Below, one piece after another: positions 3,201 to 61,993 of a DNA stretch of 64,000 nt. The stretch spans positions 9,355,360 through 9,419,359 of the forward strand of contig CAJINV010000004.1 in the NCBI GenBank assembly GCA_905178155.1, in the 5' to 3' direction. Every line of letters starts with the position of its first letter. Positions within the stretch are counted from its first letter, which is position 1. The notes under the pieces were generated by a model. It was not told the origin of the DNA and made no database searches. It worked only from the letters and a program-made list of their open reading frames with translations. Both the position numbers and the translations under genes were made by a program. Origin of the DNA: Amoebophrya sp. A120 (taxonomy: Eukaryota > Protista > Dinoflagellata).

Positions 3201-6200
3201 GACCCCGATGCAGCACTCGCGTTCACGACAGCCGGTCTACTCCGGCGGTCGTGGTGTGCCCACTTTGTTCGATTTTTCGAGAAACTGGCATGGCAAGTTG
3301 GCGCAGCTGCACGTCCCCGGGATCGATTTCCACGCGGTGGCCCAAAATGCTCGAGGAGTGGTTGGACGAGATAAAAATCGACAAACTACAGCAACCCCGA
3401 GGTCCAGGTCCGCGTCGGTACAACTACCCGGCGTCTTGTCCAGTGTCGACAACCTTCGGGCGAAGAAAAAGCACAGACAGGACGCGTTTCGTGAACAACA
3501 AACTGAGCATCTGAACGCCTTGCGGGAGGTGCGGCTGCAGGCAAGGTAAGAATTCATGAGTACCTCGTCTTGATGAAAAATGTGCGTCTTCACTGGGATT
3601 GATTCGTGTCCTCGTTCGATTTTTAACTTTGAATTTCGTACCGGCGTCGGCAACAAAAATTGATTCAAACATTTTTCGACTCAAGTGAATTTTTCCATTC
3701 GCACGCAACAGGCGTCAAATAAAAACTACAGATCCGGCCACCTCTCGCAGGAGGGCGCCCGGTTTCTCACGCAGAAGCTGATGGCCAAGCACGACAAGGA
3801 AGTGATTCTGCTGCGCCGGGAGCTAGACGTGTTAGACACGAAGATAATCGAGCAGATGCAACCGAAAAAGCAGGTAGCTTTGTCCACCATGCTAGCGCAC
3901 GACGTGGATTTCTTACCGACCTCGGAGGAAAAATCTGCCCAGGTTCTGGCGGCGCTGCATCTCGGATTAGCGACCCAAGCGCAGGACTTTGATTGTGGTT
4001 TTGTGGACGTTCCGGAGAGTTTGGTGGTAGAGACAGCAGCTGCCGATATAATTGGTGCTGACGACGACAAAGACACTGGCGCAACAGGAACAGCCCAAAT
4101 CACCAACCGGAGAAACAATAAATCCACACTAGACGAGAAGCCCGTGATCATCGATTTAAGGAAACAGAGGGAGGAGCAGGAGAAGCTCGCGAAGATAAAA
4201 GAGGTCGAAAGGTTGGAGCAAGAACGGCTAGACAATTTGGAAAAAGAGAAAAAAATGCTGGAAGAGGAACAGGAATCCATCCGGAAGCAAGAAATGGAAA
4301 ACAAACGGTTGATGAACTTGATGCGCGACTTACCGGAGGAACATAAGGAACTCGTATTAGATTACTTGAATTCCAGGAAGAAACTGCAAAAGGCCCGAGA
4401 CGGGGTCGCGCACATCGTGCAGAATAAAGAAGCAAACCGGTTGTTTCAGGTTTTGTCTATGGTGAAAAAAGAGCAACGGAAATTAACCGAGGAATTCGAT
4501 CAAATCGCGCCGGTGGCGAATATGAACTGCAAATATGTCTGGGTCTGGAAGATTGCAACTTGTCATGCTAAATCTGAAGCATGCAAAAATCTGTGTTGCA
4601 TGAGTGCCAAGAGCTGTCCACTTTTGACCAAGTTGGGCCGGAGTTTCTCATGCAGAATAGGCATGGCAGAGACCTCGCAGAGTGTGTCATGCTAAGTCCC
4701 GCATTCCAGACCTCATGGGTCATGGAAAATCTGCATGACAAGTCTACACCCTTCCAGACCCAGACACTTTTGCACTTGATAGCGAAGGAAGTGGTGAGAC
4801 TGGCGTTAGCGCAGGACCGGTGGGAGGAGTTGCAGAATGACCCGGATACTGGTGAATTGATTGCAGATTTCGACAACCGGTTACAGCATAAAGCACAGGA
4901 GTTGGAGGAAGTGAAACAAATCTTAGACGAGCTTTACGAGCAGAACGAACTGGTCGAGAAGGAAACCTCCGTCGTGAAGCAGGAGCTCGCCGAGAAGGAA
5001 AAACAATTCGAGACGGAAACCGGAGCAGTGCAATTTGACCCGGTGACGCACCACTTGGAGATTCAGAAGTTGAAAGAGGCGCTAAAACCCTGGGCAAGTG
5101 AGATGCAGCGGTTGGAATCTGGCATTGCAGAAGCGAGCGGGGTCAAGGAAAGATTGGAGCTGGAGATGCTGTTGATAGTGAACCCAAACCCACCAACATC
5201 TCCGGGCGTGGCAGAAGATGATGGCGACGTAGGTGAACAAGAAGCCGACCCGATGCAAACCATCAATTACCAAATTGCCGAGGCGTTTCGAAACATGGTG
5301 GATGCGGGGAAACTCAGTCCTGAGGATTTGGAAAGCGCCCAGCGGAATGCGCAGTTTCTGTTGCAAGACAAGCAAGATCTGGAAAAGAGGATAGAAGTGG
5401 TTTCCGCGAAGAGGGAGGAACTAAGACAACAAATGCTGGAAATCGGTGTCACGGAGAAAACGTTTGCAAAGGGGATCGTAGCCTTGCAGTCCAGCGCAAA
5501 CGCGATGCGGCGGGCCCGGGAGGCGTTGGTGCAAAATGGGCTGCGGGCGGAGGACTATTTGCCGAAGAAAGAAGAGGCGGTCGAGAGTGGGGCGCATCAT
5601 CGTGATTCGGAAATGAAAGAGAAGGCACTGCGCGGTGAAACAGGCGTTGATGTCGATGCGGCGACAGGTGCGGGTGCGGAAGAGGCAGTCATCAAAGCAG
5701 GAGAACGTTCCTCAGGCGCAGCTGCAATCTCAAAAAGAGTTTCATCGAGAGCTGCCAGAAGGAGCATTTTCGTACCCAAGAACGCGGAACCGCTGCTGGT
5801 CCGTGGTACGTATCTCAAACCCGCGACCCGTGAGGACGCAAAACACAAAAATGCGGTCGCGGCACCCGGTACCGGTATTGCGGGCCGCGGTGATCCTGGC
5901 ACAGCAGAACAAATGACAACTTTCTACATCGAGCGCGAACCGCTTTTCGAAATCACAGGTCTTAGCGGACTGCACGGTCTTCTACCAAACAGCGGACCGC
6001 CCTGGAAGTACAAGGTGTGGGAGGTGGCGAAGGCCCCAGCCCGTGGTGAAACAGCGAAGTTCAAACCAGGAATTACTGTAGCTGGAGCTGCAAGAACCTC
6101 ACCGATTCGATCGCGATCTGTATCCCCCACAGCAGGTGCACCATCGTCCCCCGGTGCTGGCGGAGGAGCACGCGGGGGTACTAGATCCCCGCCAGGGAAA

Positions 6201-9200
6201 AATGTCATCGGCGCTAGCATTATGAAATGCAAAAGCATCGTACTAGTATAAATCGCATAACAAATTTCCTCAGCATGGGAAAGAAGATTTGTAATGCGGA
6301 TTTTACCTGAGAAAGAAATTTGTAATGCATGAATGCGATTAGTACGAGTACGATAGTTTTGCACAGGATAAGCATTTTCTACCCACCAAGAAGGAACAAG
6401 CAACATGAGATATCCTGAGTAAAAACGTACCCACACCAGAGTTGTAATGCAAATCTGCATGCTGAAAATGTTTCTCATGCGGAGCTCCATGAGAAGCATT
6501 TTCTAGTCGTGTTTTGCAATTTGTCATGCTCCAATCAGCATGGTCTGCTAGATCTGTGATGCTGCTGAGCTAGCTCAAACAGCACTACACTACGAATCCA
6601 AATTTGTCATGCAAAACGGCCAAAACTTGTGGATTTGTCTAGCCGATTCCCCATCTTGACTCTGGTGTGGGTACGTTTTTACTCAGGACATGAGAAGTTT
6701 GTGAGAAAGGATGAGCAATACCAACACGAAGAATCCGAACATTGGAGGGGACAGTTGCGCAATTCTCAAAATTCGAGCAAGCTTTTTTCTTCCGCGAAAA
6801 TGTTTTCCTCTTCCTCTCCGAAACCTTCCAGAGCGAATATCCTGTGCAAAAGTATCGTACTCGTAGTAATCGCAGTCATGCATTACAGATCTCCCTCTTA
6901 ATCTAAATCCGCATTACGAAATCCATTTTTCATGCTGATGGAATTTGTCATGCGATTTATACTAGTACGATGCTTTTGCATTGCATAGCGAAAACTGATA
7001 GCCAAGTCGAAGTGGTGCGGGGTTCGAGTTTGCGGCGCGATGAACAAGAAGAACGGCAAGGAGATGAAGGAGCCCGGCGATCTGCAACGGCTGCTGCAGC
7101 TGCTGCGAAGAAGCAGGTGAGTATCACCAGCAGTGAAAGACAAAGAAGGCTGATTAAAACCTCTGCTAACGAGGACATCACCGTCGACATTCCGCCACCG
7201 GAGGGCTGGGAGAAGATGCGAATGACAGTGTCTCCGCCAAGGGCTTTGCAAGTGAGCAGTGACACCAGCGAACGGGTGGAAATTGCCGGAGCAGCAGCTG
7301 CGCCGAAAAGCTCGTCGCAGCCAGTCGCTACACCCAAAGACTTCGGTCTAGAAGAGTCTTACCTTTCAGAAGACGGTTTCGGTTCGAATCTGACGCCGGA
7401 GGAAAAGAAAGAGAAACGGTTACTCGCCTCCGCCAAGCGTCACCTGCAGCGAAAGAAAACGCAGGACCCCGAGCGGTTCGGCGAGGTAGATATTCGGGAT
7501 GGCCCGAACGACAATTTTCCCGTGATCAAGCCCGCCCGGCCGCAGAGCGACAAGATCAAAGAGTTGCTTAGCAAGTTTGAAGCCAGCCCGGAAGGAGAGC
7601 AGTACGATATGAATGCCAGTCTTCGTGGCGACAGTCTTGGGAGCAGTCCTTCTGCAGTTCTAGCAGAGAAGCTACGCTCTTCTATGGGTGGTGGTGACAA
7701 AGACAAAGACAGCGCTGGCAGAGGGAAATCTCCTTCTTCGTTTCACAACTCAGTGCACAGGAAGTCCATTGAGGAGGTGATGGCGAAAACGGCGAAGCTG
7801 TCGCAGGACAGAGCGGCATCGCGGTCCTTATCACCCACACCGATTCTCGGACAGCATCACGCGTCTCAGGAAAAATGGCGAAGGTCAATCGACAGCGGCA
7901 AATGGAGGTCGCAGTCGTCGCAACAACAAAGTAGTTTTGGAGCACCAGGCTCTTTTGGGCAGTACAACTATCCTCGTAGTGTTGCGAGCGGTACAGGCTC
8001 AGAGGCGTACAAAAATAGTAGTCTCGATTTCCGCGGCAGCGGATCAGTACAAAGATCAAACAAAAGCAGCGGCAATTTCGAGGGCAGTAGGGCGGCGGAT
8101 TCCACAAGCAGTCTCGCAAAGCTTCCTGTCACGGATGCGGGGCACTACGTCAAGGAAGAGGCGGATAATTCAGCTGACGGCGTGCCGAAGTGGGTGCAAA
8201 AAGAGCGTGACGAGCACAGCGTCTTGCAGCGGAATCACGAGTCCATCGAGCGCTTGACGAGACAGAGCAGCAGAGAGCCCCGGGACAGTAGTACTACTAC
8301 GCCAGGGCTGCAAGGACAGAAACAGTCTCCAGCAGCGGAGGGTCCCGCTGTAGTTGCACAACCTTTGCCACCGGGGCCGGGGCGGTCGACCCCGCCACCC
8401 GTAAGCGGTCTCTCGGATCCGGAGAAGGAACAGTCTCAGTCGTTTGAACAAACAGGGTCGATCTCGATAGGTGGTGGTCCGCGTGCAGAAGGGTCAGCGA
8501 AGGCGTCGTCAGCTTCTTCCCCAGTCGTGCCCGAACAAAGTGGACACGACGATGTTCTTGATGAGGGAGAGAGCAGCGCGGTGTACCTAGAGCCGACGGA
8601 TTCCGATGTGCACCAGGAAGTTGAAACCGGTTCTGCAAAAACATCAGCTGGTGCTGCACCAGCAGGTGCTAGCACTGGCATTGCAAAATCCGCCCCAGAA
8701 GATGCGGCGCCAGCAGCACGGTCAGCCGATCTTGCTAAAACGGAAAGGGCAAAATCTCCGGAGGACGGCCACTACACATTAGATCAGACGGCGTCTTCAT
8801 CCTCCTCTTCGTCCGGCAGCGGGTCTAGCAGTAGTTCTTCGGGGAGCGATTCCGCGTCCAAATCTTCGTCGAATTTGAATAACAGGAAAGCTGGAGATCA
8901 TGAGAACAAACTGTACTATCCGAGCCCGGAGCACAGCTCCTCGGAGCCCACGGTGAGTAAAGTTTCGAGCCGTGTTGATGACACAGCACTTGGTGCACAT
9001 GGAGTCGACGTGAGGGCGGGAGAAAAAAATCCTGAAGCAGCCGCAATCGCCAGTTGTGAAGAAAGAAACGCCGCGCAGATAAAGCAGTCGAGGGACAAGA
9101 ACAATTTTTCGTTTTTCCCTGAAAACCCTCCGGAGGGAGGAGCAACTGATTCCCGACAGCAACGCAGTCCTGGTAAAAATGTTGCTGGTGAAAATGTTAG

Positions 9201-12200
9201 TAACCAGTCCTCTCGGTCACAGTCGTGGTTGAAGCGAGTCTTGAAGGGACCACCTGGAGGTACTAGTGTTAAAAGCCCCCGCGGCGGCCAGCTCCAGCAC
9301 GCACAGCAGGAGGGGGAGGCGATGGAGGTGGTTCCGCGACACCCGAATCCGATCCTGCAGCACCAGTACCACATTCCGCCGTACGCGATGCTCTTTCACG
9401 GCAAGATGCAAATGGCACGGCGTCAGGCGAAAAGGGAACAAGTCAAGTCACCCCTTTTGGTGGACACCACGAAGAATCTGGATGAAATGCATGAAAAAGC
9501 GACTGGAATGAAAATTCAAGAAACTTCTACCAGAGACGAGGACCAATCTCCCGGTTGGCGACAGCGGTTGGCAAATAAGTTCGATGGTAGGAAGCCGACT
9601 GAAGCAGACGCTGCTCGTCGCGCAGATCCAAATCACAAATACAGCATGACTGTTGCTAATCGGGAATTTGTTTTCGGAAAGGACGGGCACGGATTTAAGC
9701 CGAAGTCCCAAGACTCCGAGGGAGGTTCGGCAGGAGAAAGAAGAACACGGATCCCGCGGTCGCGCGTAGACCCGGAGGGGTTGAAGTCGCAGATAACCGA
9801 CGCAAGCAACAAAGCCAGCCGCTTGGAGGAAGAAGCAGAGGCAGACCCGATCGAGATCGAGCGCAGCGAGGAAGAAGCGGAAGGAGAAGACGAGGGTCAG
9901 AATGTGAAGTGGCAAAAAGACCGCAAGTCCGGGAAGTGGATACCCGCACTATCAAATGTAAAAATGTCTGGGTCTGGAAGATTGCAACTTGTCGCGCTGT
10001 TTTTGGATTCCACAAAAATTAGTATTGCATGACCAGCAAGTAGAGGGGTGCTCTGTGTGCTACACGGACAGGGCATTTCTCATGCGAAAGGTGCATTAGG
10101 AAGCCCTCTAAAAATATGCGATGCTAGGTCATGCATTAGAGGCATCATGGGTCATGAGAAATATGCATGACAAATCTTGCATTCTTCCAGACCCAGACAT
10201 TTTTGCATTTGATGCGCATTACCAGGTGACATCTTCCCGCAGGAAGACCTGGATTCCAACACGTTCGCAGACGGCTCGCAGCGCGAATTTCGAGGCTTCT
10301 CGCTGGGTTCCACCTCGCGGAACTCGAAGGAGGGAGTTGTTGTCACGTTGGCCAAGTCCGGCCCCGTGGGAAGTGTACATTTAGTGACGTCGGATACTAG
10401 TTTAGACCCAAGGAGGGACAGCCAGGGCGAAGTTGTAGCCGAAGGGACGACCGGAAAAAATGCTTCTTCGTCTCTCCGCGGTAGTGCGGCGGAACAAGCT
10501 GGACTTTTGCAGGACGTGATGCCTCAGAAAAACACCGCGATACGGTTCACGAACCAGTACAGCGAAAACGGTGACGATGGAATTGTAGACGAAGAAGACG
10601 AGGAAAACAATGAAAATTCCGCCCAAACTGCAATCGAGAATCAACTTGTTCCGGACACAAGCGCATTTGAAGATGAGAATCAAGACGACGATACCCCCGC
10701 AAACGCCCCGCGAGGGAGAACCAGCGCACTAGGAGACGAAGTAGTAAAACGCAGTTCCCGCTGGAAGGAAGCGAGCACAAAAAGACCCACAATTCCGGAC
10801 CCCGCGGCGGATGAGCTTCGTCGTGGCAGTGCCGCGGATAAAGATCGCCCTCCTGGTGCGCCAACGGGCGGTGACCGATTGAGCAACAGCAGGAAGTCTT
10901 CCGTTTCTGAGACGCGCAACTCAATGCGCCGGGAAGAGATCAAGCAGGGCATCCAGAACGTGCTCCGCGCCAGCTCGAAGGGGGGCGACGCGAAAGCGTT
11001 GTTTCGGGATTTGCGATCCAGCTACATCTACAAGGGCGGTAACGATGTCGAGGAAAAGGTGATGAATTCGGAATACGAGTTTCAGCCAGAAGACGAAGCG
11101 AGCCAACAGAGCGGAGGTGCATCAAGTAACGGTCTACTTGAGAACCGTACAACTATGCAACCCGCCAGTGGAAAAAGCAAAGTGAAGTCGAAAGGTCTGT
11201 CTCCTGAATCTTCTTCCGCGCAGGAGTTCGCTTCTCACCCGCCGGTCGTGATCCGTGCGACCCGAGCGTCTTCTCTTCGCGACAACTTCCTCTCCTCCGA
11301 ACTCGAAACCAGACCGGACAGCGTGAAAACTTCCCTTCACGAAGAACATTTCCACTGGTTCGTGGGGAATCAGGAACGGAAAAAACAAAAGTCGCCCTAC
11401 GCGTATCATTATGCATTGCAAAAGTATCGTACTAGTGGTAGTATGAATTGCGTCACAAATTCTACATCTACTCTCAAGTACAAAAGTGCATTACAATTTG
11501 TCATGCTACTTCGGGTAGAAAGTTGGGCTTGGGTTTGTAATGTATGACTGCAATCATTACGTACAAGTATGGTATTTTTGCAGTGCATCTCCACCCCCAG
11601 ACGAAGAAGATGCACCAGTACGACGAGTTTTACCGGCATTATTCACAGAAAAAAACCCATCCACATCCAATTTGTCATGCAAAACCCGTATCAAATCATG
11701 TGTTTGTCATGCAAAAAACGGATGTGGATGAGTTTTTTTCTGTGCATACTCATAGTGGCGGTCACATCCTCCACCAGGAAGCGGGGTATTATTACCACAA
11801 GAACGTGGGCGATTCTGGGGTGCTTTTTTCCCCTCGGCGCGGGAGGTCGCCACCGCTATCAAATGTAGAAATGTCTGGGTCTGGAAACTTGTGATGCTGG
11901 GTGGCGTCTCATGATGAGGCCACAAATGCTGGCTCAACATGACAAGTTTCTGAGCTTCTAGGTGTTGCCTATTCTGCATGGCAAACTGCGTTTCTGCATC
12001 ACAGAAAAATGGAGTTCTTGGGTAACGTGCATGACAGGTTTGAGAGTCATGCCAGACAAGCATGACAAACATGCATTCTTCCACCAGACCCAGACATTTT
12101 TGCATTTGATAACCGCCGAAAAGCGACAACTCGGTTCTGAGTAAGGACAACTGGTCTCGGGCGCACGAAACCTTCTACGACGGGGGAAAGGAGCATCAGA

Positions 12201-14104
12201 ACCAACCCTGGAACAAAAGCACGAACGTGTACGGGTCGCTGCACAAGTTTTCCCGGGGGAAAAACAGTCCAAAGACTTTCGCACCGGACTACGTTGTGGC
12301 GAAAGTGGAAAAGAATCTGGAAGAGGAACGGGAGACGGCTATGTTGAGGGAGCAAATGAAGAGCATGATGCTGAAATCTACTTCGGGTAAGGATGATATA
12401 AACGAAGCCGGCTTTCTCGGTAGGGATTCTGCTGCGAAAAGTACAACAGAAGGTGCACTGGGGAGTGTCGGAAATGATGTTCAACATAATGCTGACGGCA
12501 ATGTTGAATTTGAAAAACAGAGGACGGCAAAAGGAACAAAAGGGAACGCAGCCACAACGAAAGCCGTCAACATCAAAGCTCCTTCAAACAAGACTCCGAT
12601 CATATCCCCTTTGAACGACAAAAACTTTACCTTCATCCCGCCGCAACGAACTGAAAAAGACAACCCAGTGCTGGAAAACCCGCCGAGGCTAACGAAACGG
12701 AACGTGAAAACGGGTATTGGCTTCACCGGCGGTATATGGATCGCAAAAATGTCTGGGTCTGGAAGGATGCGAACGCGTGATGCGCATTTCGCAACACGGA
12801 CAGATCTCTCATGCATAGGCAGCAAAAGGTGCCCACTTCCTGTCACCAGAATGGGGGATTTGTCATGCGGATTAAGCAATGCAGAAGCTTCTCGAAATCT
12901 GTGATGCTAGGGCTTCCATGACAGACATTTGGTGTCATGCAAAAACAGCATGACAAAAATCTGCATTCTTCCAGACCCAGACATTTTTACATTTGATACG
13001 GTATCGATATTCACCATTCGCCCGCTTCCAGCAAACGAACCGCGTCACCCCCGGACAAGGAAAAAGTCGTCAGCGCGTCGCCGCCGCACACGTTTTCCGG
13101 GCTTCCGGTGCTGAGGGCAAAGAAGAAAAAGCCGCAGCTGCAGGCACGAAGCAGTATGAAATTTCAGGACTTTGACCACAATTTGCGGAAGCAGGTGAGT
13201 ACCCCTTTGACCGATGAGAAGTTAAGACGGATTGCTGCCTCTTTACCGACGACTCCAATCAACAAACCGAAACTGAAACGCGGCAAGAGCCCTGCTCGCC
13301 CTGTCGCCGTGCAGACCGACTACTCCATGTCGCCGCGGTCCGTGATGATGCGCACGCAGTGGGAGAATTTGGGCGGCATGGACCTGCCCCCGGAGAAAGT
13401 GCTCCCGTTTGATAGAACCGCGTCCATGTTTATCGGCGCAAGGATGATGGAAGCGATGAAACATTACAACGCTGGTGGAGAAGATGGCTCAAGTAGACCG
13501 ACAGAAATCTACACGTCCCAGAGGTTTCTGAAAGGCGCGGCGGGGCCGTCGCCAACGCACATCGCACCGGCGGCCTTCGGGAGGATGAGTCAGAAGCCGC
13601 TGGAGGGGAGGAAGATTATTGAGAGGAGCGAAAATGACGAAGTAGAGAAGGTGCAGGAGTTGGCGAGGATTACGATGCTGGAAAAGGCTCTGCTAGAGAA
13701 GGGGGAGAAGGATAGAGAAGCCGCAAGACTGACCAGCCCATTGTCGTCGGGGCTGCAGCAGCAGCCGACCTCGTTCGCCGACCAAGTCCGCAAGGATAAA
13801 AACGCTGGAGGAGAGCTGCAGGAAAACGAGAAGGCAAAAAAGCCGCCGAAAATCAAGACGGTCTTAGCCCCTTCACATGGCAGAACCTCTGGGGTTAGCG
13901 CGCTGGACGATTTCCTCTCCGACACGAGCGAACGGAGTTTCGGGAAGAAAAGGACCCCCAGGAAGAAACACGTGAAAGCGCCGGCGCACGGCCGGCCGAC
14001 CGGCGTAGACCCCTTTGCGGTATTGGCGGGGGTACCCTCGTCCGGTGGGGGTGGGGAGGGGGAGGCGGCAGAGCATGAGGCCAACCCGTCTCCTGGGCGG
14101 CAAG
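294..14104 (+). CDS. Giant (>3,800 aa in window) charged, low-complexity and coiled-coil protein of unknown function; 5'-partial; may end in exon 15838-16509
   Basis: ORFs 202, 3685, 4581, 6629, 6970, 10348, 11544, 12227 and 13108 join in frame after removing one conventional intron and 9 TIR elements each with one DR copy. Exons ~299-3545, 3732-4520, 4787-6220, 6376-6410, 6696-6837, 6993-9949, 10220-11409, 11595-11639, 11754-11856, 12117-12734, 13004-14104. E/K/Q-rich coiled-coil-like segments; no recognisable domain. Confidence 0.8.
3546..3731 (+). other. Conventional spliceosomal intron (GT-AG; in-frame alternative GC-AG 3541-3711)
   Basis: AG|GTAAG at 3546 and CTACAG| at 3731 join the flanking ORFs in frame. 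AT-rich, with an in-frame stop. Confidence 0.7.
4521..4781. mobile_element. Introner, family A (TCTGGGTCTGGAA TIR), DR GCGAA
   Basis: TATGAACTGCAAATATGTCTGGGTCTGGAA...TTCCAGACCCAGACACTTTTGCACTTGATA; GCGAA at 4516-4520 and 4782-4786. Excision gives ..PVA-K-EVVRL.. Confidence 0.93.
6221..6370. mobile_element. Introner, family B (150 bp), DR AGCAT; opposite orientation to 6838 and 59003
   Basis: TATGAAATGCAAAAGCATCGTACTAGTA...TACGAGTACGATAGTTTTGCACAGGATA. Frame restored (..GAS-I-FYPPR..). Confidence 0.92.
6411..6690. mobile_element. Introner, family C, DR TGAGA
   Basis: TATCCTGAGTAAAAACGTACCCACACCAGAGT...ACTCTGGTGTGGGTACGTTTTTACTCAGGACA, a near-perfect 32-bp TIR. Frame restored (..QHE-K-FVRK..). 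Confidence 0.93.
6838..6987. mobile_element. Introner, family B (150 bp), DR GCGAA
   Basis: TATCCTGTGCAAAAGTATCGTACTCGTA...TACTAGTACGATGCTTTTGCATTGCATA. Frame restored (..SRA-K-TDSQ..). Confidence 0.93.
9950..10214. mobile_element. Introner, family A, DR CGCAC/CGCAT
   Basis: TATCAAATGTAAAAATGTCTGGGTCTGGAAG...CTTCCAGACCCAGACATTTTTGCATTTGATG. Removing 270 nt joins ORF 6970 to ORF 10348. Confidence 0.92.
11410..11589. mobile_element. Introner, family B-like (diverged), degenerate DR ATCAT/TCCAC
   Basis: TATGCATTGCAAAAGTATCGTACTAGT...ACAAGTATGGTATTTTTGCAGTGCATC. Removing the element plus 5 nt gives ..YAYH-PQTKKM.. in frame. Confidence 0.8.
11640..11748. mobile_element. Introner, family D (109 bp), DR GGCAT/CTCAT
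   Basis: TATTCACAGAAAAAAACCCATCCACATCC...GGATGTGGATGAGTTTTTTTCTGTGCATA. The 114-nt removal is frame-neutral. Confidence 0.85.
11857..12111. mobile_element. Introner, family A2, DR ACCGC
   Basis: Family A TIRs; interior nearly the same as 31041 and 49594. Frame restored into ORF 12227. Confidence 0.93.
12735..12998. mobile_element. Introner, family A variant, DR CGGTA
   Basis: TATGGATCGCAAAAATGTCTGGGTCTGGAAG...CTTCCAGACCCAGACATTTTTACATTTGATA. Frame restored into ORF 13108. Confidence 0.92.
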
Positions 14105-14209
14105 GTATACTTGCTTTCTCCTGTAGTGTATTCACAAAAATGCTGTTTCAAAATAAATCTCGTATCAAAATAAATACAGTGATCCAAATTTGTAATAGCT
14201 CTTTTGTGA

Positions 14210-15601
14210 ACCGGACGCGCCCACCGCACTGCCCGCAGTTTTGTTTATGCTCCGCGCTGAACAATCTCGGGGTCCATCACATTAGAGGCCGGGCGGGCCA
14301 TTGTGGCCGCGGCTTGGGCTTGCTCCGTCATGCCTCAACCTGCCTTCAAGGCGGGCCAAGCATGTCGTCTCCACGCCTGGGGCATGCAGTCAGTGGTCGA
14401 CGTACGTTGCTAGTCGCAACTGCGTCGTGGGACGCCGGAACTGCAAGTAGCAGTACGGCGCCCCTGGCGGCCTCGTCCGGTTCCCAAACCGGGCGTGGGA
14501 AAAACGCCAAAGTGGGGGTGCCTTAGTATCCCTGGAGCGGGCGGCCCGTAAACGGGACCCGACCCGGGTAGATCCTCGTGCAGGCCCCGACCTGCCGAGA
14601 AGAATCCCCGGAAGTGCCCGACTGGCACAGGACGTGTGGAAGTCCAACGTAGGCGTCTGACAAACGCCGGCAAAGGCTGACGGGGTCCCCCCTCCCCTCA
14701 CCTGCGCCACTCAGGGTGAGCACAGCTCCCCGAAACCCCATTCCAGTGAGCCCCCACCCGCTCACACCGAGGCGTCTCTCCCTGTTGGAAGGGGAGGGGG
14801 CCTCGCTGTCACTAGAGTCACGCGCTTGGGTTAATCTCAAGATTGCTTCGCGCAACCAGGCGCGTGACTCAAAATTCCACGTGTAAAAGCGCCCCGGGCG
14901 CCGTGCGCCGCACGAAAAAAAGCGGCAAGGTAACGTGGGGCACCTCGCCCCACGGTGTGTGCCGCTCGTAAGAGCGGCTGTGTCTCTCCTCCGCGTAGGA
15001 GAGAAGCGTGGCGCCGACAGGCACCACGCAAGACGCGCGCGCGCACCTCGAGGCCACGATCACGCGTGCGTCTCGAAACGCGCGCGTGCGCCTCGAGGCC
15101 ACGAGGCGCACGAGCACACGCAGTGCGAGGTCACGCGCGCGCGTGCACCTCGAAACCCTGGCCGCGAGGCGGCAGGGGAACGGACTACGAGATGCAGCCG
15201 CACCGTAGTAGCCGCGTGTTCGTTTATGGTTGAAAATCGATCGACAGGACGTTGTGCATCAAGATTCGCTGCCTAAATGTCGGTCGTCGCAAGAAGGCTG
15301 TCGGTCGAGAGGTGACTGAGAATGGACTTTCGTACTTCAGAGACCGTTGCGACACGTACGCGAGCCGTAGAGCCGCAAGGACCTCGACGTCAAAGGATAT
15401 GCGAAAATCGTACAACAGAAGGACGTTCAAAAAATCGTGGGCAGTACAACCCACGCCGATCCCTAGCAGTAAAGTCGTCCAGTAGATACTGATCGATCGT
15501 CGAACGACCATAGACACAAACCGCAGGCAAATAAAATCACATACAGGGCAGGAGCTTAAAGCACATTGCAAACCCACATAGTAGCTAGCACTAGGCACTC
15601 T
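14210..15601. other. GC-rich, structured, repeat-containing block, probably an insertion within a large intron starting at GT 14105; interrupted by the gap
   Basis: Abrupt compositional change; hairpin 14815-14870; imperfect (CG)n-CACCTCGAGGCCACGA repeats ~15030-15160. Confidence 0.45.
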
Positions 15602-22225: not shown

Positions 22226-22369
22226 AAGCATTCGATGAGTGGGAGAAGTTGCGCCTATCTTATTTATCTCTATGTCATTGTCATTGAGAATTTCTTTGAA
22301 TACTAAGTGAGCGACATTAAAGATTCGGCATTGCCGTTTGTGTGATTTCTGACGTAACTACGTGGCCAA

Positions 22370-49146: not shown

Positions 49147-50352
49147 ATGTCGTTCTGCAGTTCTTGTCCATGCTTCGCCAGCAGCGAAGGAGACGACGAG
49201 AACACCTCCGCCACGGATTTAAAGCAAGTTGTCGTCGATAAGAAAAAAAAGAAGACAACATCTCAGAACCGCAAAAAGTCGACCGACAGTGCAGGAGATG
49301 CCGACCAGTCGGAAGCCGCGCCGCTATTGAAGAACGACAGCAAGAAACGGGACAGCAAGGGGACCACGACGTCGTCGACCAAGGGGGAAGGCAAGAATAA
49401 ACGGTCCTCCAGACCATCAAAAGGCAAGGGCAAGGACCAGCCCCCCGATGAAGAACCAGAGGACATCAACGACGAGAGCAACGCAGACACGACAAAAAGA
49501 GCCTCTCGCACTTCGTCTTCCGCCAAAACAGCTACACGGTCGTCGAAGAACGACCGCAGGAGCAGCAGAAAGAAATCGCAAGACGAAGCGGAGTATCAAA
49601 TGCAAAAATGTCTGGGTCTGGAAACTTGTGATGCTGGGTGGCGTATCATGGGGAGGCCACAAGTGCTGGGTCAGCATGACAAGTTTCTGAGCTTCTAGGT
49701 GTTGCCTACCCTGCATGACAGACTGCGTTTCTGCATGACAGATCAATGGGGCCCTTAGGTAACGTGCATGACAGATTTAAGAGCCATGCCAGACATGCAT
49801 GACAAACATGCACTCTTCCAGACCCAGACATATTTGCAATCCATACGGAGTACTATGGTGCAACAGAAGAACAGGGAGAGCAAAACGGCAGCGCGGGCAC
49901 TACTTCTGCGAAGTTGACGAAACACGAAGGATCTTTTTCCGGAAATGACGAGGAAGGCTGGGACAAGGAGGGGCACGACAAGGAGTACAGTGCGGAGAAC
50001 AAGAAGGGCGACGAGGATGACTGGGAGGAAGAAGATGATGAATCCTGGCCGGCCTGGACCCTGCGTTATCCAATGTCAAATCTTAATCTAAATCTTTTTC
50101 ACCACCACGAGTACGGCCCTCAATTTGTAAGAATGCAGATTTTCAATGCTCTGTCTATCACCACCTAAGCCTAGTAAGGCTAACATGTGCGCATTACAAA
50201 TTGAGGGTGGACATCGAGGAGACCAACATGGTGGTGATTTTACACTGCATATGCGGCGGCAAGCCACCTTGGCACGGGACAAGAGCCTGAAAAAGATAAA
50301 GCGGCAGGAGACGGCTTTGCAAAACGCGTTCGCGAAAATTATGGAGGACTAG
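49147..50352 (+). CDS. Hypothetical charged protein (~252 aa) with a Cys-rich N-terminus
   Basis: Exons 49147-49593, 49851-50066 and 50257-50352 join in frame after removal of two introners; starts MSFCSSCPC. Confidence 0.75.
49594..49845. mobile_element. Introner, family A2, DR CGGAG
   Basis: TATCAAATGCAAAAATGTCTGGGTCTGGAA...TTCCAGACCCAGACATATTTGCAATCCATA. Frame restored. Confidence 0.93.
50067..50251. mobile_element. Introner, family H (diverged TIR), DR TGCGT/TGCGG
   Basis: TATCCAATGTCAAATC...GATTTTACACTGCATA; GCATTACAAA at 50191. Excision gives WTLR-RQATL in frame. Confidence 0.75.
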
Positions 50353-51471: not shown

Positions 51472-54154
51472 ATGGTGTGTTGCGGTTGGTGTTGCGGTGA
51501 CGACACCGAGCTTCTAGTCGATGCCGATACCCCGGCGAAGGACCAATTGCGCCAGGTCGTCGTAGACCATTCGAAGGCGGCTGTAGTTGCGGTCGACGTC
51601 GACGACAGCACCACGGCATTGGAAAATGTCCCACTGATGGCAGCATCCACAGCTTTTGAGGAAGCAAGCGCAGCACAGGAAAATCTTACCCCCGACGATG
51701 TAGACCCAGGCGGTGTTCTTCCAGCAGCTCCCAAGAAAGAAGATCAAGAGCGCAAGTCAAAACTGATTCCACCCTTGACTTTTTTACCGACGCCCGCCAT
51801 CAAAAGCAGTATTCGGACCAGTGCAGGGTCGTCTGTTGCTGCTCCTAATGCAGCATCTCGAAGATCGTCTACCAACTCCAACACCACAACAGCATCGACC
51901 CAAATAAATCTCCAACCTTCCGGAGATCAGGCGCAGCGCAACAGTGCGGCGGCCCGTCGGCCTTCCGGGTCGAGTTTTCAGTTGAAGCCGCGGATTTCGG
52001 GGTTTAATTTTGTCGGAACTACGCAGAAAAAACCGCTGGGAGGTGAAGCCACCACAAGTACCTCAACGATCATCCCCCGGCCCAGTGAGGACGATGAAGA
52101 TGGTGCAGCTCCTGCTGGTGTTGATCCACGACCTCGAGGAACTACATCCTCAAATGCGGGCAGCAAAAAATCTTCCATAACGAGCTACTCGGAGCGAACT
52201 ACAGGTGGAACAGCTTCGCCACTTAATCTCTCACCCACCGGTGCGAAAAGAACGGTTACGCAAACGAAGTCGCAATTTTCCTTTGGTGAGGAGGGGGTGT
52301 ACGGCGAACTCCGCACGACAACCGATGAGCACCACGACAACAACGATCACGAGCAATTGCACGACGAAGTGCGGGAACAGATCGCGAACATCGATAAGGT
52401 TTTGAAACACGAGGAATCTACGTTGAACAGTCGCGACTTCCGCAGCCTGATTCGGCGCGAGGAGGAGGACCATTTACGCGGCCTGCCCTCGTTCGTCCAC
52501 AAAGCGAAAGCGGGGCTGAAAACCGCGGTGACTGGTCTGTCTGAAGTCGGCGACAGTAGTACAACGACCCGGGATGGTACTAGCTTAACCGACGCATCAT
52601 CAGTCGGAAGGAGGACCGGCGACGGGGAGAAAATGTTTCGCGACGCGGCGGAAGGTGTGAAACTGAAAAGTGAGGAAAGCGTTGTTCCACCCAGGAGTGC
52701 GAGTGCCAATAGCAGTGGTGGACGTTCTGGTCCGTCTCAGCAAACTACTACACAAGCATCTTCTATCCCAAGATTGTCCTCAAGGCCGGAAAGTGAAAGA
52801 GTTCCCTCGATCCCCAGCGCCGAAGATCGCTCGTTTATCAAATTTCCGTCCGCATTGCGGAATGTCAGCGGCGCTTCCGGATCCCGAGCTACGGGTGGTG
52901 TCCCGAGTGCGTTCAAGGACTACAGCTCGGCCGGGGATTCGATACTGCGCTCGGACGACAGTACTATGATCCCCTCCTCGGGAGTAGCTGCACCTGGTGC
53001 ACAGCCGACCAGCAGCGGGATGTCGTCCAATATCAGCAGTTATGCCTCGCAGAACAGTGTTGACTCGCGAATCACAGAACAAGTATCGCAGATGAACAAA
53101 GACAACAAACGGGGTGGAAACATCAATACGAATACGTCGAATAGGCCTAGCTCCTCGGCCGCCAGCATTCTCGACGACTCCCGCGTGACGGAGCAAACGC
53201 AGAACTATCATGCGCAAAATTGATATCTTCGTGCCCGTACTGATTGCACTCGTGCGTGACAGGTGTGTCTTTTTACTAGTCAGCGACATACTCTTGTTCG
53301 TTGATTCTGGAAAACGAAAAGCTTGTGGTGTAATTAGTACAAACTCACACGATATTATTTTTGAACTGCATAAGAACAAGCGAGGCACCACCACCACTGC
53401 GGCTACATTCACGTTCGGCACTACCGTTCTCTCCGCCCCAGGAACTGCAGCTGGACAAAGGGACAAGGAGGGGGGTGCGACGGTAGTACACGGTGTAAAA
53501 CAAGGAGAACTACACCCGGCAGGGCACACGCATACAGCTACCTTCGGGGATAGCGATGTTGAGGCTGCTGCTGAACAACAGCAAAACCGTCAAACCAATA
53601 ACAGTAAGTCGGAGATGAATTACGTGGAAGGCGAGCACCATCGGGAAAGGGATGGCTCAACATCAGGGTTCCAGTGGTCATCCTCCTCCTCATCCGCTTC
53701 GGGGAATGATTCTAGCAACGGGGTGGACGACGACGTGGCAGCTCCCGTGGGCGTCGTGAGGAACAAGGAAGCGTCGAATCGCAGGGCAACTCCTGATTTC
53801 GGTACAACCACGACTGCTTCGCCTGCTCTCATTCCGTCACCGTCGATACCAACCAGAACCATCGTCTCGACCAGCCCGAACAGCCGAAAACCCGGTGCAG
53901 TTGATGCGCAGGAACGACCCAGAAGTAGAGGAATGACAGCCCCGAAAGGTGTTAGCATTCCCAGTAATACCATCACATCTATCTCGCCCCACATGTCCGC
54001 GGCAGCGCGTCTAGCGGCACGGCGGTCGGCGGCTAGAGCGAAAGCGACTGCAGCTTCGGGCACTGGGAGAGGAGGTAATGTTCCTACTTCTTCATCTTCT
54101 ACCGGTGTGGTAGATCATGCTAAGAAGACGTCGGCGGGGGATGATGTTATGTAG
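51472..54154 (+). CDS. Hypothetical Ser/Thr-rich protein (~836 aa), N-terminus MVCCGWCCG
   Basis: Exons 51472-53205 and 53378-54154 join in frame after removal of one introner. Confidence 0.8.
53206..53372. mobile_element. Introner, family I, DR AGAAC
   Basis: TATCATGCGCAAAATTGATATC...GATATTATTTTTGAACTGCATA, with inner IR GTACTGATTGCAC/GTGTAATTAGTAC. Excision gives QTQN-KRGT. Confidence 0.85.
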
Positions 54155-58545: not shown

Positions 58546-61500
58546 ATGCCACCACTCAGCTGCTGCCACGACCGAGGGCCGGACTTATCCGAGACCACCT
58601 TCAGGAGCACAGCTCCGTGTAATTCGTCATCTTCGCCCAGCTCTACTAGTTCGTCGAGCAGTGCGAAAGCAAGATATCGACATGGAGAAATGAGGTTTCG
58701 AGCAAGAAGAACCCCCGCCGTTTTAGGTGCAGCAGCCTGTTGGACAACCGCACTCCTTCCCAACATCCAGGAAATCTTGTTTCAGGCAAATTTGAATTTC
58801 CACCAAAATCTTGTCGCCGCAAAGCAGCACAGGAGCACAAGGAAGAGCAGCGAGCACCACCAACAGGGACGAGAAAAGCAAGAGTCTCTCCTCGATGCTG
58901 CGTTAAGCTCCGTGAAGAAGAGCGCAGAAGACCTTCTCCACTGGCGCGGCGAGGGACAAAACTTTCGAGTACACAAAAAAATGATCGTCAAAGTGAAGAA
59001 GCTATCCTGTGCAAAAGTATCGTACTCGTAGTAATTGCAATCATGCATGACAAATTGCCCATCTTAGGCAAATCAGCATTACAAATTGCACTTTTCTCTT
59101 TGAAAAAATTTGTAATGCAATCTATACTAGTACGATACTTTTGTAATGCATAGAAGCGGAAGAGGAGCAAAAAACGGAGTGGTGCAAGAACCGCCGCGGC
59201 TGGTCGAAAATCATCATCCTCTTCCACCTCTGCCGGCAGAGTCTACTCGTCCACCTCGAGTAGTAGTAGAAGTGGCCGATTGCAAGATGGGCATCGTCAA
59301 GATGAACGCCAGCAGCTTCGAAAGATGAACAAGAAACAGAGAAGGAAAGCCGCGAAAGGAGCTGCTGCAGCAGCAGCAGCAACAGCTGCTGCACAGATGA
59401 GAGGTCTTCAGAAGAAGACCTTGAGAAGCGAAAAACTACTAGTACGCGAAGACGAGAAAGATGGTAGTGGGAGTGAAGAGGAGATTCCGGATGAAGAAGT
59501 AGACAAAATGATGAACGAGAATAGCGAAACATTGCATCCGGACGAGCCCGTGGGGCTGGACGCCACGACAAGCACAACGAGCACTTCCACGACAAGCACA
59601 AGCACGACTTCTACTACGACGACGAAAGCCGGAACGTCTACAGGAAGTTTTTCTGGCGCGTCAATCCGGATGCCGGGCCCTGCCCCTGCGCCAGCTCCGA
59701 CCTCCTCGTCTTTGGTGCAGCACGATTGGGACGATGGGGACAACTCGACCGAAGCACCGCAAAGGACCACTGCAGGAGCAGTACAAATACAAGACGCGGA
59801 TGACACAAACTCGACAACGATGTCGCCCCCAAAGGATGCTGCTGGACAACATCAAGGAAGCTCCTCGTCAGCCTACCTCACAACCGCACAAAATAACGTC
59901 TTCCACAACCTGACCAACCGGAGCAGCGAGCAGATTGGCGAGTCCATCAGCACAACATCAAGTTCTACTACTTCCACAACCGCTGCGACAACGACGACAT
60001 TAGCTGGCGGCGATTTTTACACGCCTGAGGCGATGGTGCTGGCAAGGAATAATAAGGCGGGTGACGATGAAGACGATGAAATAAATCGGACACAATCCTA
60101 CCTGCAGAAGCAAGACGTGGTGATTCGCCGGAGGATTCCGGTGAGTCAATACGGGCAGAACAACCTCCAAGGGGCTCCTGTGGCGGGTGGACAGCAAGTG
60201 CTGCAAGCAGGTGCAGGGCCAAGCTATCCGCAGCCGGCGCTAGTAGTGCAAGGAGGTAATGGCTACGCTGCGCAGCCACCGCCGGCGCTATACGAAGATC
60301 CGCAGTTTCTCGCAACGGCCTCAGACGGGCAGCAGTTGGTGCAGTCGAACCTCCTCCAGGGAACAGTGAATGGCATGGTCAAAAATGATGTTGTCCCGCA
60401 GCAAAATAATCAAGTCCCGCAAGAACAGCAGCAGCTACAATCCCGTCAGCGTGTTTTCGCCACGGTGAGTACTACCGGAACGCCAAATGGACCGCAGATT
60501 CAAGTCCCGCAAATGTACAACAACCCAACGACAACTAAGCAGTTTGCAATCAACCAAGACGGATTGGAAGATGAGGAACAGCTTGACGACTGGCCAGCAA
60601 CTACGAACAGCTACGAAGAGGATGGGGAGTACGAGGACAGCTACGATAGCGGGGAGGACGATTACGATTCCGGTGAAGACGCAGCTTATCTAGAAGAGCA
60701 AGGCGATGACAGCGACGAAGACGATAGCACGAATAGTACCACGACGGGGTTTGTCGACACGAACACGTTTCGGGAAGAATGTACTTGTGTTTTTCTCGAC
60801 TTTTTTCGGAAGTGAAAAATGGCCATGGCGATTAAGAAGTTGTACGGAACTTCCGGTATCGCTTTTCGAAGCGGCCTCACCGAGATGAGAAATAAAAAAT
60901 CGTGCATGATGCGCATGCCATATTACCCATTCTTGATTTGGAATCACAACATACAACAGGTGATGCCGCGACACTGGTGGCCGCCTGGAAAGCTTGTGGG
61001 ATCAAGGACAGTTCGCTGAAAGATTACAAAGCGGGCGAAAACACCAGCGATTTGGTGTGGGAAGTGAAACAAAGTACTGCTACTGTGTTGAAAAAGTCTG
61101 CTCAGATGATTTGCGATTCTGCCAAACCATTTTGACGTGCTCGGAGTCCATTGTGATGCCAAGCACACTTTCCTTCTGCAGCCCTAATATTTCTGAATCC
61201 AAAAGAAAAAACACATTCTTATCAAATACAGCCCACCTCTGCAACACCATCTGCATGTTGGCCTCCGAGATCTGCGCAGACCTCACCGGCCTAGCCGTAT
61301 CAAATGTAAAAATGTCTGGGTCTGGAAGAATGCAACTTGTGATGCTCATGCTGCATTTGGATGTCTAAAACTAAAAAATTTGTGTTGCATGAGCAGCAAA
61401 AGGAATCTAATTTCTGCTACGCGGAGAGGGCATTTGTCATGCAGAATAGGCATCAAGAACCCCTCAAAAAACCTGTGATGCTAGGTCATGCATCACAGAG

Positions 61501-61993
61501 ACCACGGCTCATGCAAATCGTGCATCACAAGTCTCAGAACCTTCCAGACCCAGACATTTTTACACTTGAGAAGCCGCCCGGCGGTACGACGAAGTTACCT
61601 GCTCGCGTTACTGGAACCGGGTGTCGGAGGAATCCATAGTGGTCACGGAAACCAACGACTATCGAATAAAAGAGTGTTAACTTTAACGGTTTTCACAGAT
61701 GGCAGTCATGCATTACAAATTTTGCCTTCCGTGCATGGTACGCAATACAAATTTGCGCGCCTCTTCAGATGCATCCCTGCATCACAAATTCCGTTAACGT
61801 TAGCACTTTTTCTTGTGATAGCGACGCGTCGTCCAAAGCCATGTTCTTCGGGTGGAGACTGCAGCTGCTGTTCACCTTTGTGTTCCTGCTGTTTTCGGTC
61901 AGCGGCTTCGGGGATCATGATCATGGAGGGTTCCTCGGTACTACAGCAGCCTCGTCGGTCGGAAGGAGCAGGCAAGTGCAGGGGGTGTGGTGA
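58546..61993 (+). CDS. Putative secreted/membrane mucin-like protein with a Cys-containing C-terminal domain and hydrophobic tail (~836 aa; start may be 58690)
   Basis: Exons 58546-59002, 59158-60780, 60960-61073, 61232-61297, 61577-61659, 61826-61993 are in frame (3 introners; GT-AG introns 60781-60959 and 61074-61231). Thr/Ser runs; tail LQLLFTFVFLLFSV. Confidence 0.75.
59003..59152. mobile_element. Introner, family B (150 bp), DR GAAGC
   Basis: TATCCTGTGCAAAAGTATCGTACTCGTAGTAAT...TATACTAGTACGATACTTTTGTAATGCATA. Frame restored. Confidence 0.93.
61298..61571. mobile_element. Introner, family A, DR AGCCG
   Basis: Family A TIRs (right end ...TTGAGA). Excision gives TGLA-A-RRYDEV. Confidence 0.92.
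61660..61820. mobile_element. Introner, family J, DR ACGAC/GCGAC
   Basis: TATCGAATAAAAGAGTGTTAACTTTAACGG...CCGTTAACGTTAGCACTTTTTCTTGTGATA. Excision gives ETND-ASSKAM. Confidence 0.88.

What the first reader, a model, noticed from the sequence alone, without database searches (positions are those of the whole stretch)
4521..61820. A system of TAT...ATA inverted-repeat elements acting as non-GT-AG introns in six genes
Seen: 23 complete 109-321-bp elements with TIRs and a 5-bp DR lie inside coding sequence. Deleting each element plus one DR copy restores the frame in all 23 cases and rebuilds conserved motifs (carrier PFDTV|KTRLQ; ATM NFQPA|LKYFFLEKF and HEAL|TAYAKSL). They outnumber conventional introns (~6-7) about 3:1. 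Known: non-canonical introner elements with inverted and direct repeats have been reported in Amoebophrya, and to my knowledge their excision mechanism is unresolved. Inference: these are non-autonomous DNA-transposon derivatives removed precisely from RNA (or DNA) by machinery that does not need GT-AG.
Basis: partly seen in the sequence, partly recalled or inferred. Interest (0 to 1): 0.9.

Follow-up and report, generated by a model that had tools for sequence, protein, structure and literature searches.

The report
Published Amoebophrya introner elements, confirmed

Summary
All 23 elements exist at the stated places. They have TAT...ATA ends, inverted terminal repeats and a 5-bp direct repeat.

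- **Frames:** removing each element plus one repeat copy builds long + strand ORFs of 2969, 471, 5116, 839, 716, 282 and 194 aa.
- **RNA:** contigs from one study skip four elements exactly, with 5-6 ambiguous letters at the repeat, and two more by length accounting.
- **DNA:** contigs keep the elements at single-copy depth.

The system is already in print. An exon is 100% identical to a protein of Amoebophrya sp. A120. Farhat et al. 2021 describe A120 introner elements whose inverted repeats start with TAT, then 7 nt, then a run of A. They report 3-5-nt direct repeats, RNA-seq support and 29,850 copies. Gozashti et al. 2025 list matching family sizes.

- The duplication is exactly 5 bp in 170 of 255 paired ends in environmental copies.
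- Both orientations occur relative to the coding strand.
- 21 of 22 repeats here allow no GT-AG.
- A spliced copy has a mismatched repeat.
- A 14-nt internal motif is shared across families.

The excision enzyme remains unknown.

The parts
4521..4781 (.). Introner element, family A (261 bp), DR GCGAA
   Evidence: in frame after removal; no RNA laid
6221..6370 (.). Introner element, family B (150 bp), DR AGCAT
6411..6690 (.). Introner element (280 bp), 3' end ACA instead of ATA, DR TGAGA; 96% identical copies in metagenome loci
6838..6987 (.). Introner element, family B (150 bp, opposite orientation to 6221), DR GCGAA
9950..10214 (.). Introner element, family A (265 bp), 3' end ATG, DR CGCAC/CGCAT
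11410..11588 (.). Degenerate family-B-like element; frame needs removal of 179 (or 176) nt; 3' end and DR unclear
11640..11748 (.). Introner element, family D (109 bp), DR GGCAT/CTCAT (3/5)
11857..12111 (.). Introner element, family A (255 bp), DR ACCGC
12735..12998 (.). Introner element, family A (264 bp), DR CGGTA
20428..20662 (.). Introner element (235 bp), DR CCGTC, in the mitochondrial-carrier gene
   Evidence: absent from RNA contigs by length accounting (X4 record 9, X6 record 16)
20704..21010 (.). Introner element, family C (307 bp), DR CGGTA; splits the carrier signature PFDTV|KTRLQ
30670..30975 (.). Introner element, family C (306 bp, opposite orientation to 20704), DR AGACT/AGACC
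31041..31296 (.). Introner element, family A (256 bp), DR CCTTG/TCTTG
33463..33776 (.). Introner element, family C (314 bp), DR TGCGG
37556..37699 (.). Introner element, family D (144 bp), DR CAAGA; whole element lies in one DNA contig
   Evidence: (X1 record 7)
40496..40816 (.). Introner element (321 bp), DR CGCGC, inside the PI3/PI4-kinase domain
   Evidence: RNA joint 40490>40817 in 4 of 4 RNA runs; P0001 reads across it
40881..41145 (.). Introner element, family A (265 bp), DR CGCTG, inside the kinase domain
   Evidence: RNA joint 40875>41146 in 4 of 4 RNA runs; P0001
49594..49845 (.). Introner element, family A (252 bp), DR CGGAG
50067..50251 (.). Introner element (185 bp), mismatched DR TGCGT/TGCGG; the mRNA keeps the downstream G
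   Evidence: RNA joint 50061>50252, both=4, X4 only, depth 4.1
53206..53372 (.). Introner element (167 bp), DR AGAAC; the only element without the internal motif
59003..59152 (.). Introner element, family B (150 bp), DR GAAGC
   Evidence: RNA joint 58996>59152, skips 155, X4 only
61298..61571 (.). Introner element, family A (274 bp), 3' end AGA, DR AGCCG
61660..61820 (.). Introner element (161 bp, B-related), DR ACGAC/GCGAC
24523..41690 (+). PIKK (ATM-like) gene: 5116-aa ORF after removal of 6 elements and one GT-AG intron; PI3_PI4_kinase and FATC at the end
19951..22222 (+). Mitochondrial carrier gene (471-aa ORF after removal of 2 elements and 2 GT-AG introns)
3664..14523 (+). 2969-aa ORF with no Pfam match, interrupted by 9 elements
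40146..40329 (+). Conventional GT-AG intron, skipped in 4 of 4 RNA runs

Best explanation
These are the published introner elements of Amoebophrya sp. A120: short, non-autonomous, hairpin-forming TIR transposon copies with a 5-bp target-site duplication that sit in coding exons, stay in genomic DNA and are absent from RNA contigs as exactly element plus one duplication copy; they are likely cut out of the pre-mRNA by a machinery that measures its two cuts from the element's paired ends rather than reading GT-AG.

Shown here: the anatomy, the copy families, the exact 5-bp duplication, removal at the RNA level for 6 elements, and retention in DNA.

Inferred: the terminal stem brings the two repeat copies together, and the two cuts lie at offsets that sum to 5 nt outside the stem. 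The duplication itself is a by-product of insertion, not a signal.

Enzyme (open): I lean to a spliceosome-independent endonuclease-ligase route like that proposed for euglenid nonconventional introns (about 0.45). A remodelled spliceosome is the alternative (about 0.4). My reason is that in every possible register at least one intron end is a random target-site letter.
For: Identity
- Exon 41151-41690 is 100% identical to an 809-aa protein of Amoebophrya sp. A120, which reads across both kinase-domain elements.
- Element ends are T 43/44, A 42/44, T 44/44, with A in at least 35/44 at positions 11-14. The paper gives 'TAT, seven nt, at least three A' for A120 IRs (PMC7789003, section 11).

RNA and DNA
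- Four exact joints and two by length accounting.
- DNA contigs at depth 42-44 cross exon-element borders.

Transposon nature
- Repeat words reach depths of 5,470 to 118,028 against about 44 for single-copy DNA.
- At least 145 metagenome loci hold a 20-nt family A word.
- Among 255 paired ends there, the flanking repeat is exactly 5 bp in 170 and 4/5 in 26.
- The repeat shows no sequence preference.

No canonical sites
- 21 of 22 DRs in the window and 156 of 170 metagenome DRs allow no GT-AG, GC-AG or AT-AC.

Frame test in environmental copies
- Removing element +5 matches frames in 33 of 38 informative junctions. The controls give 3 of 36 (+4) and 2 of 38 (+6).

Symmetry
- Both orientations occur within families A, B and C.
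- Of the 33 in-frame metagenome copies, 17 were not alignable to family A. The 16 that aligned split 8 sense and 8 antisense.

Structure
- 21 of 21 elements fold far below shuffles (z -3.4 to -12.2).
- In 20 of 21, at least 11 of the first 20 nt pair with the 3' end.
Against: - The 50067 element is spliced (one contig, depth 4.1), yet its ends do not pair in the MFE fold and its z is only -3.4. A strong terminal stem is therefore not strictly needed.
- Three elements have a changed terminal triplet (6411, 9950, 61298) but sit in intact ORFs.
- Only 6 of 23 elements have RNA evidence, all from one sample. The tool labels those runs 'RNA?' as a guess.
- No read-level data exist for this strain. 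The one raw RNA run that I laid (X9, of three listed) gave 1 read. Cut register, lariat versus circle, and end chemistry are therefore all untested.
- Nearly the whole spliceosome is present in A120 according to PMC7789003 (section 10 passages). A U1-70K homologue is reported in strain A25 (PMC12787238, passage). Both speak for a spliceosomal route.
Confidence: 0.8

Rival explanations
1. A remodelled major spliceosome removes the elements. Its 5' splice-site reading would be relaxed (no U1 snRNA was detected), and the hairpin would only help by bringing the ends close. This is what is reported for MITE-derived non-canonical introns of the tunicate Fritillaria.
For: - PMC7789003 (section 10 passages) reports all but 6 of 89 spliceosome proteins, and U2, U4, U5 and U6 in A120.
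- The same RNA contigs carry a GT-AG joint and element joints, so both kinds are removed from one transcript.
- The Mob DNA review (PMC11282704, passages) says tunicate non-canonical introns are spliced by the spliceosome.
- One GT-AG intron here (21084-21251) carries the element-type internal motif.
Against: - Because the duplication is random, at least one intron end is a random dinucleotide in each of the six registers.
- The mismatched-repeat case puts the 5' cut inside the random repeat (one contig).
- From my own knowledge, no known spliceosome accepts any first nucleotide.
- Both orientations are tolerated.
Confidence: 0.4
2. The elements are removed from DNA, like ciliate internal eliminated sequences. 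Staggered 5-nt cuts would be rejoined on the duplication, and the mRNA would be copied from rearranged templates.
For: - Removal of element plus one duplication copy is what precise transposase-type excision gives.
- The organism is an alveolate.
Against: - DNA contigs at the same depth as the flanks (42-44) run across exon-element borders at 20428, 21010, 30670, 31296, 33463, 33776 and both ends of 37556.
- None of the 15 listed X1 joints is an exon-exon joint at an element (18 further rows were hidden).
- RNA runs hold element sequence from other copies (tables 7 and 8), so elements are transcribed.
Confidence: 0.03
3. The pattern is an artefact: chance inverted repeats, mis-assembly, or insertions that simply break dead genes.
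For: - Some flanks are too short for the frame test (4 of 21).
- One element has unclear ends.
Against: - 15 perfect elements against 0-1 in shuffles.
- Exact RNA joints.
- A conserved kinase domain and FATC are rebuilt.
- An independent metagenome assembly holds the same families.
Confidence: 0.01

Closest known systems
Introner elements (IEs) of Amoebophrya sp. A120 (Farhat et al. 2021, PMC7789003; re-catalogued by Gozashti et al. 2025, PMC12130899)
   Same: Everything that defines them matches:
- the organism
- IRs starting with TAT, then 7 nt, then an A run
- 5-bp DRs (supplement legend Fig. S19)
- non-canonical borders
- RNA-level removal
- many families

Family sizes in the 2025 table match families A, C, B, D and the 40496 element here: 252-260, 305, 149, 106 and 319-321 bp, listed as 'TIR DNA, superfamily unknown', with TSD 4-5 where detected (19 of 58 rows seen).
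   Different: Nothing in kind. The points added here are not in the passages I read:
- a fixed 5-bp duplication in a second assembly
- no orientation bias relative to the coding strand
- splicing of a copy with a mismatched repeat
- a shared internal motif

Figures and most supplementary figures were not visible to me, so some of this may already be shown there.
Nonconventional introns of euglenids (PMC12501133 abstract; PMC11282704 passages)
   Same: - Variable non-GT-AG borders.
- Intron ends that base-pair and bring the exons together.
- TSD-like repeats at the junctions.
- Suspected MITE origin.
- Unknown excision machinery.
   Different: - Euglenid signature is CAG/CTG at +4..6 and -8..-6. 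Here it is TAT/ATA at the very ends, with S-A-A at +4..6.
- Euglenid introns are excised as circles. That is untested here.
Spliceosomal introners of Micromonas, Aureococcus and Polarella (Huff 2016 and Roy 2023, as cited in PMC11282704 and PMC7789003; not read)
   Same: Short non-autonomous TIR transposons with TSDs that create introns on insertion.
   Different: Those carry one splice site and build the other from the TSD, giving GT-AG. Here the TSD is random, and 21 of 22 copies cannot give any canonical pair.
MITE-derived non-canonical introns of Fritillaria borealis (PMC11282704 passages; PMC13326754 abstract)
   Same: Transposon-derived introns that escape the GT-AG rule on a genomic scale.
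   Different: Fritillaria introns share a border pattern (AG-A[N]) and are spliced by an adapted spliceosome. Here there is no border consensus.

Membership tests
Amoebophrya A120 introner elements (Farhat 2021) | Host genome is Amoebophrya sp. A120 | tested here: met
   Exon 41151-41690 is 100% identical over 100% of the query to an A120 protein. tblastn of that protein back on the window gives 100% over aa 1-610.
Amoebophrya A120 introner elements (Farhat 2021) | Inverted repeats at both intron ends that start with TAT, then about 7 variable nt, then at least 3 A | tested here: met
   44 ends: T 43, A 42, T 44; A in 35-43 of 44 at positions 11-14.
Amoebophrya A120 introner elements (Farhat 2021) | Direct repeat of 3-5 nt across the exon/intron borders | tested here: met
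   5/5 in 17 elements, 4/5 in 5, 3/5 in 1 (11640) and unclear in 1 (11410).
Amoebophrya A120 introner elements (Farhat 2021) | Removed from RNA at non-canonical borders | tested here: met
   6 of 23 elements.
Amoebophrya A120 introner elements (Farhat 2021) | Repeated in families across the genome | tested here: met
   Word depth up to 118,028 against about 44. Four multi-copy families in the window.
MITE / non-autonomous TIR DNA transposon | TIRs, a target-site duplication of fixed length, and no coding capacity | tested here: met
   The DR is exactly 5 bp in 170 of 255 paired ends. Elements are 109-321 bp.
MITE / non-autonomous TIR DNA transposon | A cognate autonomous element with a transposase | not tested
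   No whole genome is held. Pfam on 22 ORF pieces of the window found only a LINE-type RT/endonuclease.
MITE / non-autonomous TIR DNA transposon | Empty sites or insertion polymorphism | not tested
   None of the 145 metagenome loci is orthologous to the window. The protein-based metagenome scan found nothing.
Euglenid nonconventional introns | CAG at +4..6 and CTG at -8..-6 that pair | tested here: not met
   Positions 4-6 are C/G, A/C/G and A. The ends are TAT/ATA.
Euglenid nonconventional introns | Excised as full-length circular RNA | not testable with these tools
   Only contigs exist for this strain. The one raw RNA run laid (X9, of three listed) gave 1 read.
Spliceosomal introners (Micromonas/Aureococcus type) | GT-AG borders, one site carried by the element and one built from the TSD | tested here: not met
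   21 of 22 window DRs and 156 of 170 metagenome DRs allow no canonical pair in any register.
Ciliate-type internal eliminated sequences | The element is absent from the DNA that is transcribed | tested here: not met
   DNA contigs at flank depth cross the borders. Rare excised molecules are not excluded.

The most novel reading that the evidence does not exclude
The elements carry their own excision code: the TAT...ATA paired ends plus a pan-family internal 14-nt motif (WGCAT[G/C/T]ACARRTTT).

Motif counts:
- The 8-nt core occurs 68 times in 22 of 23 elements.
- It occurs 5 times in the other 58,750 nt of the window.
- It is present in 193 of 196 environmental copies.

Under this reading a dedicated, spliceosome-independent factor, possibly a domesticated relative of the transposase that once bound the same sites, cuts the RNA at a fixed distance from the stem base. 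The 5' cut would lie inside the upstream duplication, and the exons would then be ligated. That would be a second nuclear mRNA splicing system, evolved independently of the euglenid one.
Probability: 0.15. Interest if true: 0.85.

Novelty: already known. Interest (0 to 1): 0.3.

Why it matters
Why the system is remarkable: over 60% of this parasite's introns ignore GT-AG, and tens of thousands are transposon copies that are removed precisely (PMC7789003). How a cell excises an intron whose border letters are random is an open question about the limits of splicing and the origin of introns.

This window adds no new kind of thing. It does supply a compact test bed:
- A conserved kinase domain with one GT-AG intron and two elements within 1 kb.
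- A spliced copy with a mismatched repeat.
- A near-universal internal motif that could be mutated in reporters.

Tried and rejected
- **Whole genome:** none is held for the window.
- **Raw RNA run X9** (same species label): 1 read laid, so no read-level data. I draw no conclusion from it.
- **RNA holders:** no listed holder is on record as RNA. X4, X6, X7 and X8 are 'RNA?' by guess. I treat them as RNA because they skip a GT-AG intron and cover only parts of the window.
- **Elements with no RNA result:** in the two stretches laid, no bridging RNA contig was listed for 30670, 31041, 33463, 37556, 49594 and 53206.
- **Frame controls that failed to discriminate:** the first control with short flanks (17-20 of 21 for every phase) and the 150-nt version on metagenome copies. 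Both were replaced by the dominant-frame tests.
- **Annotated proteins for the other genes:** two 'longer' searches found nothing. The representative search never ran because the queue was full on 7 tries. So the register test on the mismatched repeats at 30670, 31041, 9950 and 61660 could not be made.
- **Metagenome scan with P0001:** no relative found.
- **Rfam on the window:** 0 matches.
- **Earlier scan notes:** none for this genome.
- **Long elements with the same ends (700-9000 bp):** none in the window. Two cases appear in metagenome loci, and they look like chance or compound pairings without a long ORF.
- **Mismatch positions in 4/5 repeats:** 10, 5, 4, 3 and 4 at positions 1 to 5. 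This is too weak to interpret.
- **Circular-intron joints:** none among the listed rows. Contigs cannot show this.
- **Literature:** a search for the motif letters together with 'Amoebophrya' found only one unrelated paper. Figures and logos are not searchable.
Full report
**Observation**

The sequence shows the anatomy directly. At 20423-20667 it reads CCGTC|TATGGCGTTCTCAA...TTGAGAACGCCATA|CCGTC, and 20704, 40496 and 40881 look alike.

A scan for TAT...ATA with at least 12/20 TIR matches and a perfect 5-bp direct repeat finds 15 elements. Five shuffles give 0, 0, 0, 0 and 1. Self-BLAST and a relaxed scan add copies with a 4/5 repeat or one changed terminal letter, namely 6411, 9950 and 61298, and a degenerate copy at 11410.

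They fall into families:

| Family | Size | Copies |
|---|---|---|
| A | about 255-274 bp | 8 |
| B | 150 bp | 4-5 |
| C | about 307-314 bp | 3 |
| D | 109-144 bp | 2 |
| singles | various | the rest |

**Frames and genes**

Removing 22 elements plus 5 nt fuses + strand ORFs into 3664-11544 (2250 aa) and 24523-40175 (4871 aa). Adding the ambiguous element (179 nt) and three RNA-supported GT-AG introns gives ORFs of 2969, 471 and 5116 aa.

In the dominant-frame test made on 21 elements (6411 was not yet in the list), the upstream and downstream frames agree in 17 of 21. The other four flanks are too short to judge. A first, looser control did not discriminate.

Pfam results:
- PI3_PI4_kinase is split, with profile positions 2-60 in the exon ending at 40175 and positions 129-240 in the exon from 41151.
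- FATC follows the kinase domain.
- Mito_carr lies at 21470-22222.
- Also found: an FkbM methyltransferase, an exostosin domain and a LINE-type ORF.

The elements lie in seven ORFs, not six.

**Organism and prior annotation**

Exon 41151-41690 is 100% identical to an 809-aa 'unnamed protein product [Amoebophrya sp. A120]'. That protein maps to 38484-40145, 40327-40497 and 41142-41690. It reads ...NFQPA-LKYFFLEKF...HEAL-TAYAKSL.... The public gene model therefore already splices elements 40496 and 40881.

**RNA and DNA**

Four RNA-type contig sets from one sample gave these joints:

| Joint | Skipped | Reading | Runs |
|---|---|---|---|
| 40142>40327 | 184 | GT..AG intron | 4 of 4 |
| 40490>40817 | 326 | 321+5, 6 ambiguous letters | 4 of 4 |
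| 40875>41146 | 270 | 265+5 | 4 of 4 |
| 50061>50252 | 190 | 185+5 | X4 only |
| 58996>59152 | 155 | 150+5 | X4 only |

In 20001-22324, X6 record 16 has 107 nt between 20422 and 21250. That equals 41 + 66 nt of exon once elements 20428 and 20704 and a GT-AG intron are removed. X4 record 9 agrees.

The DNA run X1 covers all 30 bins at depth 42-47 outside repeats. Its contigs run from exons into the elements, and record 7 holds all of 37556-37699. No exon-exon DNA joint is among the 15 rows shown, but 18 rows were hidden.

So removal is at the RNA level for 6 of 23 elements. The rest have no RNA data here.

**Literature**

I read sections 10-12 and 16 of PMC7789003 and searched its supplement legends. 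It reports:
- more than 60% non-canonical introns in A25 and A120
- A120 introner elements with 8-20-nt IRs that start with TAT, then seven nt, then at least three A
- DRs of 3-5 nt (legend S19 shows 5 bp)
- 29,850 repeated introns in 1,954 families
- U1 snRNA not detected
- mechanism unresolved

In PMC12130899 (passages, and 19 of 58 A120 rows of one table) the listed A120 families are 252-260, 305, 149, 106 and 319-321 bp. They are classed 'TIR DNA, superfamily unknown'.

Reviews from 2024 and 2026 add no mechanism. The finding is therefore already known.

1. A 20-nt family A word hits at least 145 loci of one metagenome assembly. None is orthologous to the window.
2. Among 255 paired ends there, the flanking repeat is exactly 5 bp in 170 and 4/5 in 26. 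The remainder look like mispaired neighbours.
3. The repeat has no sequence preference. 156 of 170 allow no GT-AG, GC-AG or AT-AC in any of the six equivalent registers, and neither do 21 of 22 in the window.
4. In those copies, removal of element +5 matches the dominant frames in 33 of 38 informative junctions. The controls give 3 of 36 (+4) and 2 of 38 (+6).
5. Orientation relative to the coding strand is 8 sense and 8 antisense among 16 classifiable family A copies. The other 17 of the 33 were not alignable. Both orientations also occur within families A, B and C in the window.
6. 21 of 21 elements tested fold well below shuffles (z -3.4 to -12.2). The ends close the structure in 20 of 21.
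7. At 50067 the repeats differ (TGCGT/TGCGG), and the RNA joint has only 4 ambiguous letters. The mRNA therefore keeps the downstream G. Repeat identity is not needed, and the 5' cut lies upstream of TAT. This rests on one contig at depth 4.1.
8. A shared internal motif, WGCAT[G/C/T]ACARRTTT:
   - The core 8-mer occurs 68 times in 22 of 23 elements and 5 times in the other 58,750 nt. Shuffles give a mean of 0.5.
   - It occurs in both orientations, 36 forward and 33 reverse.
   - In metagenome copies it reaches 13.0 per kb against 2.47 per kb outside, and is present in 193 of 196.

**Mechanism**

Shown: insertion-type anatomy, exact RNA-level loss and retention in DNA.

Inferred: the cuts are placed relative to the paired element ends. 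The reasons are that the border letters are random, both orientations are tolerated, and the excised length is always element + 5.

Against a strict hairpin rule:
- 50067 splices with a weak terminal stem.
- Three copies have a changed terminal triplet but sit in intact ORFs.

The enzyme is open. I put a spliceosome-independent route at about 0.45, a remodelled spliceosome at about 0.4 and DNA excision at about 0.03.

The internal motif is as likely a transposase-binding subterminal repeat as an RNA signal. Its lack of strand bias favours the former.

**Verdict**

The system is published, so interest is low for novelty, even though the biology stays unsolved.

Noticed in passing
inside 22 of the 23 elements; also 169, 200, 21102, 55886, 61152: Pan-family internal motif WGCAT[G/C/T]ACARRTTT in both orientations. 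The core 8-mer occurs 68 times in 5,250 element bases and 5 times in the other 58,750 bases. One outside copy lies in the GT-AG intron 21084-21251.
   Followed up: partly
44434-48369 (+): Intact 1312-aa ORF with Exo_endo_phos and RVT_1 domains, a LINE-type non-LTR retrotransposon. Only short RNA contigs were listed on it.
   Followed up: partly
24523-41690 (+): The public protein (809 aa) starts at 38484. The frame stays open upstream to 24523 once four elements are removed, giving a 5116-aa PIKK-like ORF. The deposited gene model may be truncated.
   Followed up: partly
50062-50066 and 50252-50256: The two repeat copies differ (TGCGT/TGCGG), and the single RNA contig keeps the downstream G. 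This gives a handle on the cut register.
   Followed up: partly
about 105-296: A family-B-like element copy with an intact 3' end but no recognisable TAT 5' end. It lies next to short tandem repeats at the window start.
   Followed up: no
15602-15701: A run of 100 N (assembly gap).
   Followed up: no
55484-55523: A 40-nt 3' fragment of a family B element without a matching 5' end.
   Followed up: no
L057:1490-2520 and L065:1490-2461: In metagenome loci, family A ends with a perfect 5-bp repeat lie 1031 and 972 bp apart with no long ORF. In L057 the span holds other element copies. These are compound or chance pairings.
   Followed up: partly
metagenome loci, 26 copies with a 4/5 repeat: Mismatches fall at repeat positions 1 to 5 in 10, 5, 4, 3 and 4 copies. 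The excess at position 1 is unexplained.
   Followed up: no
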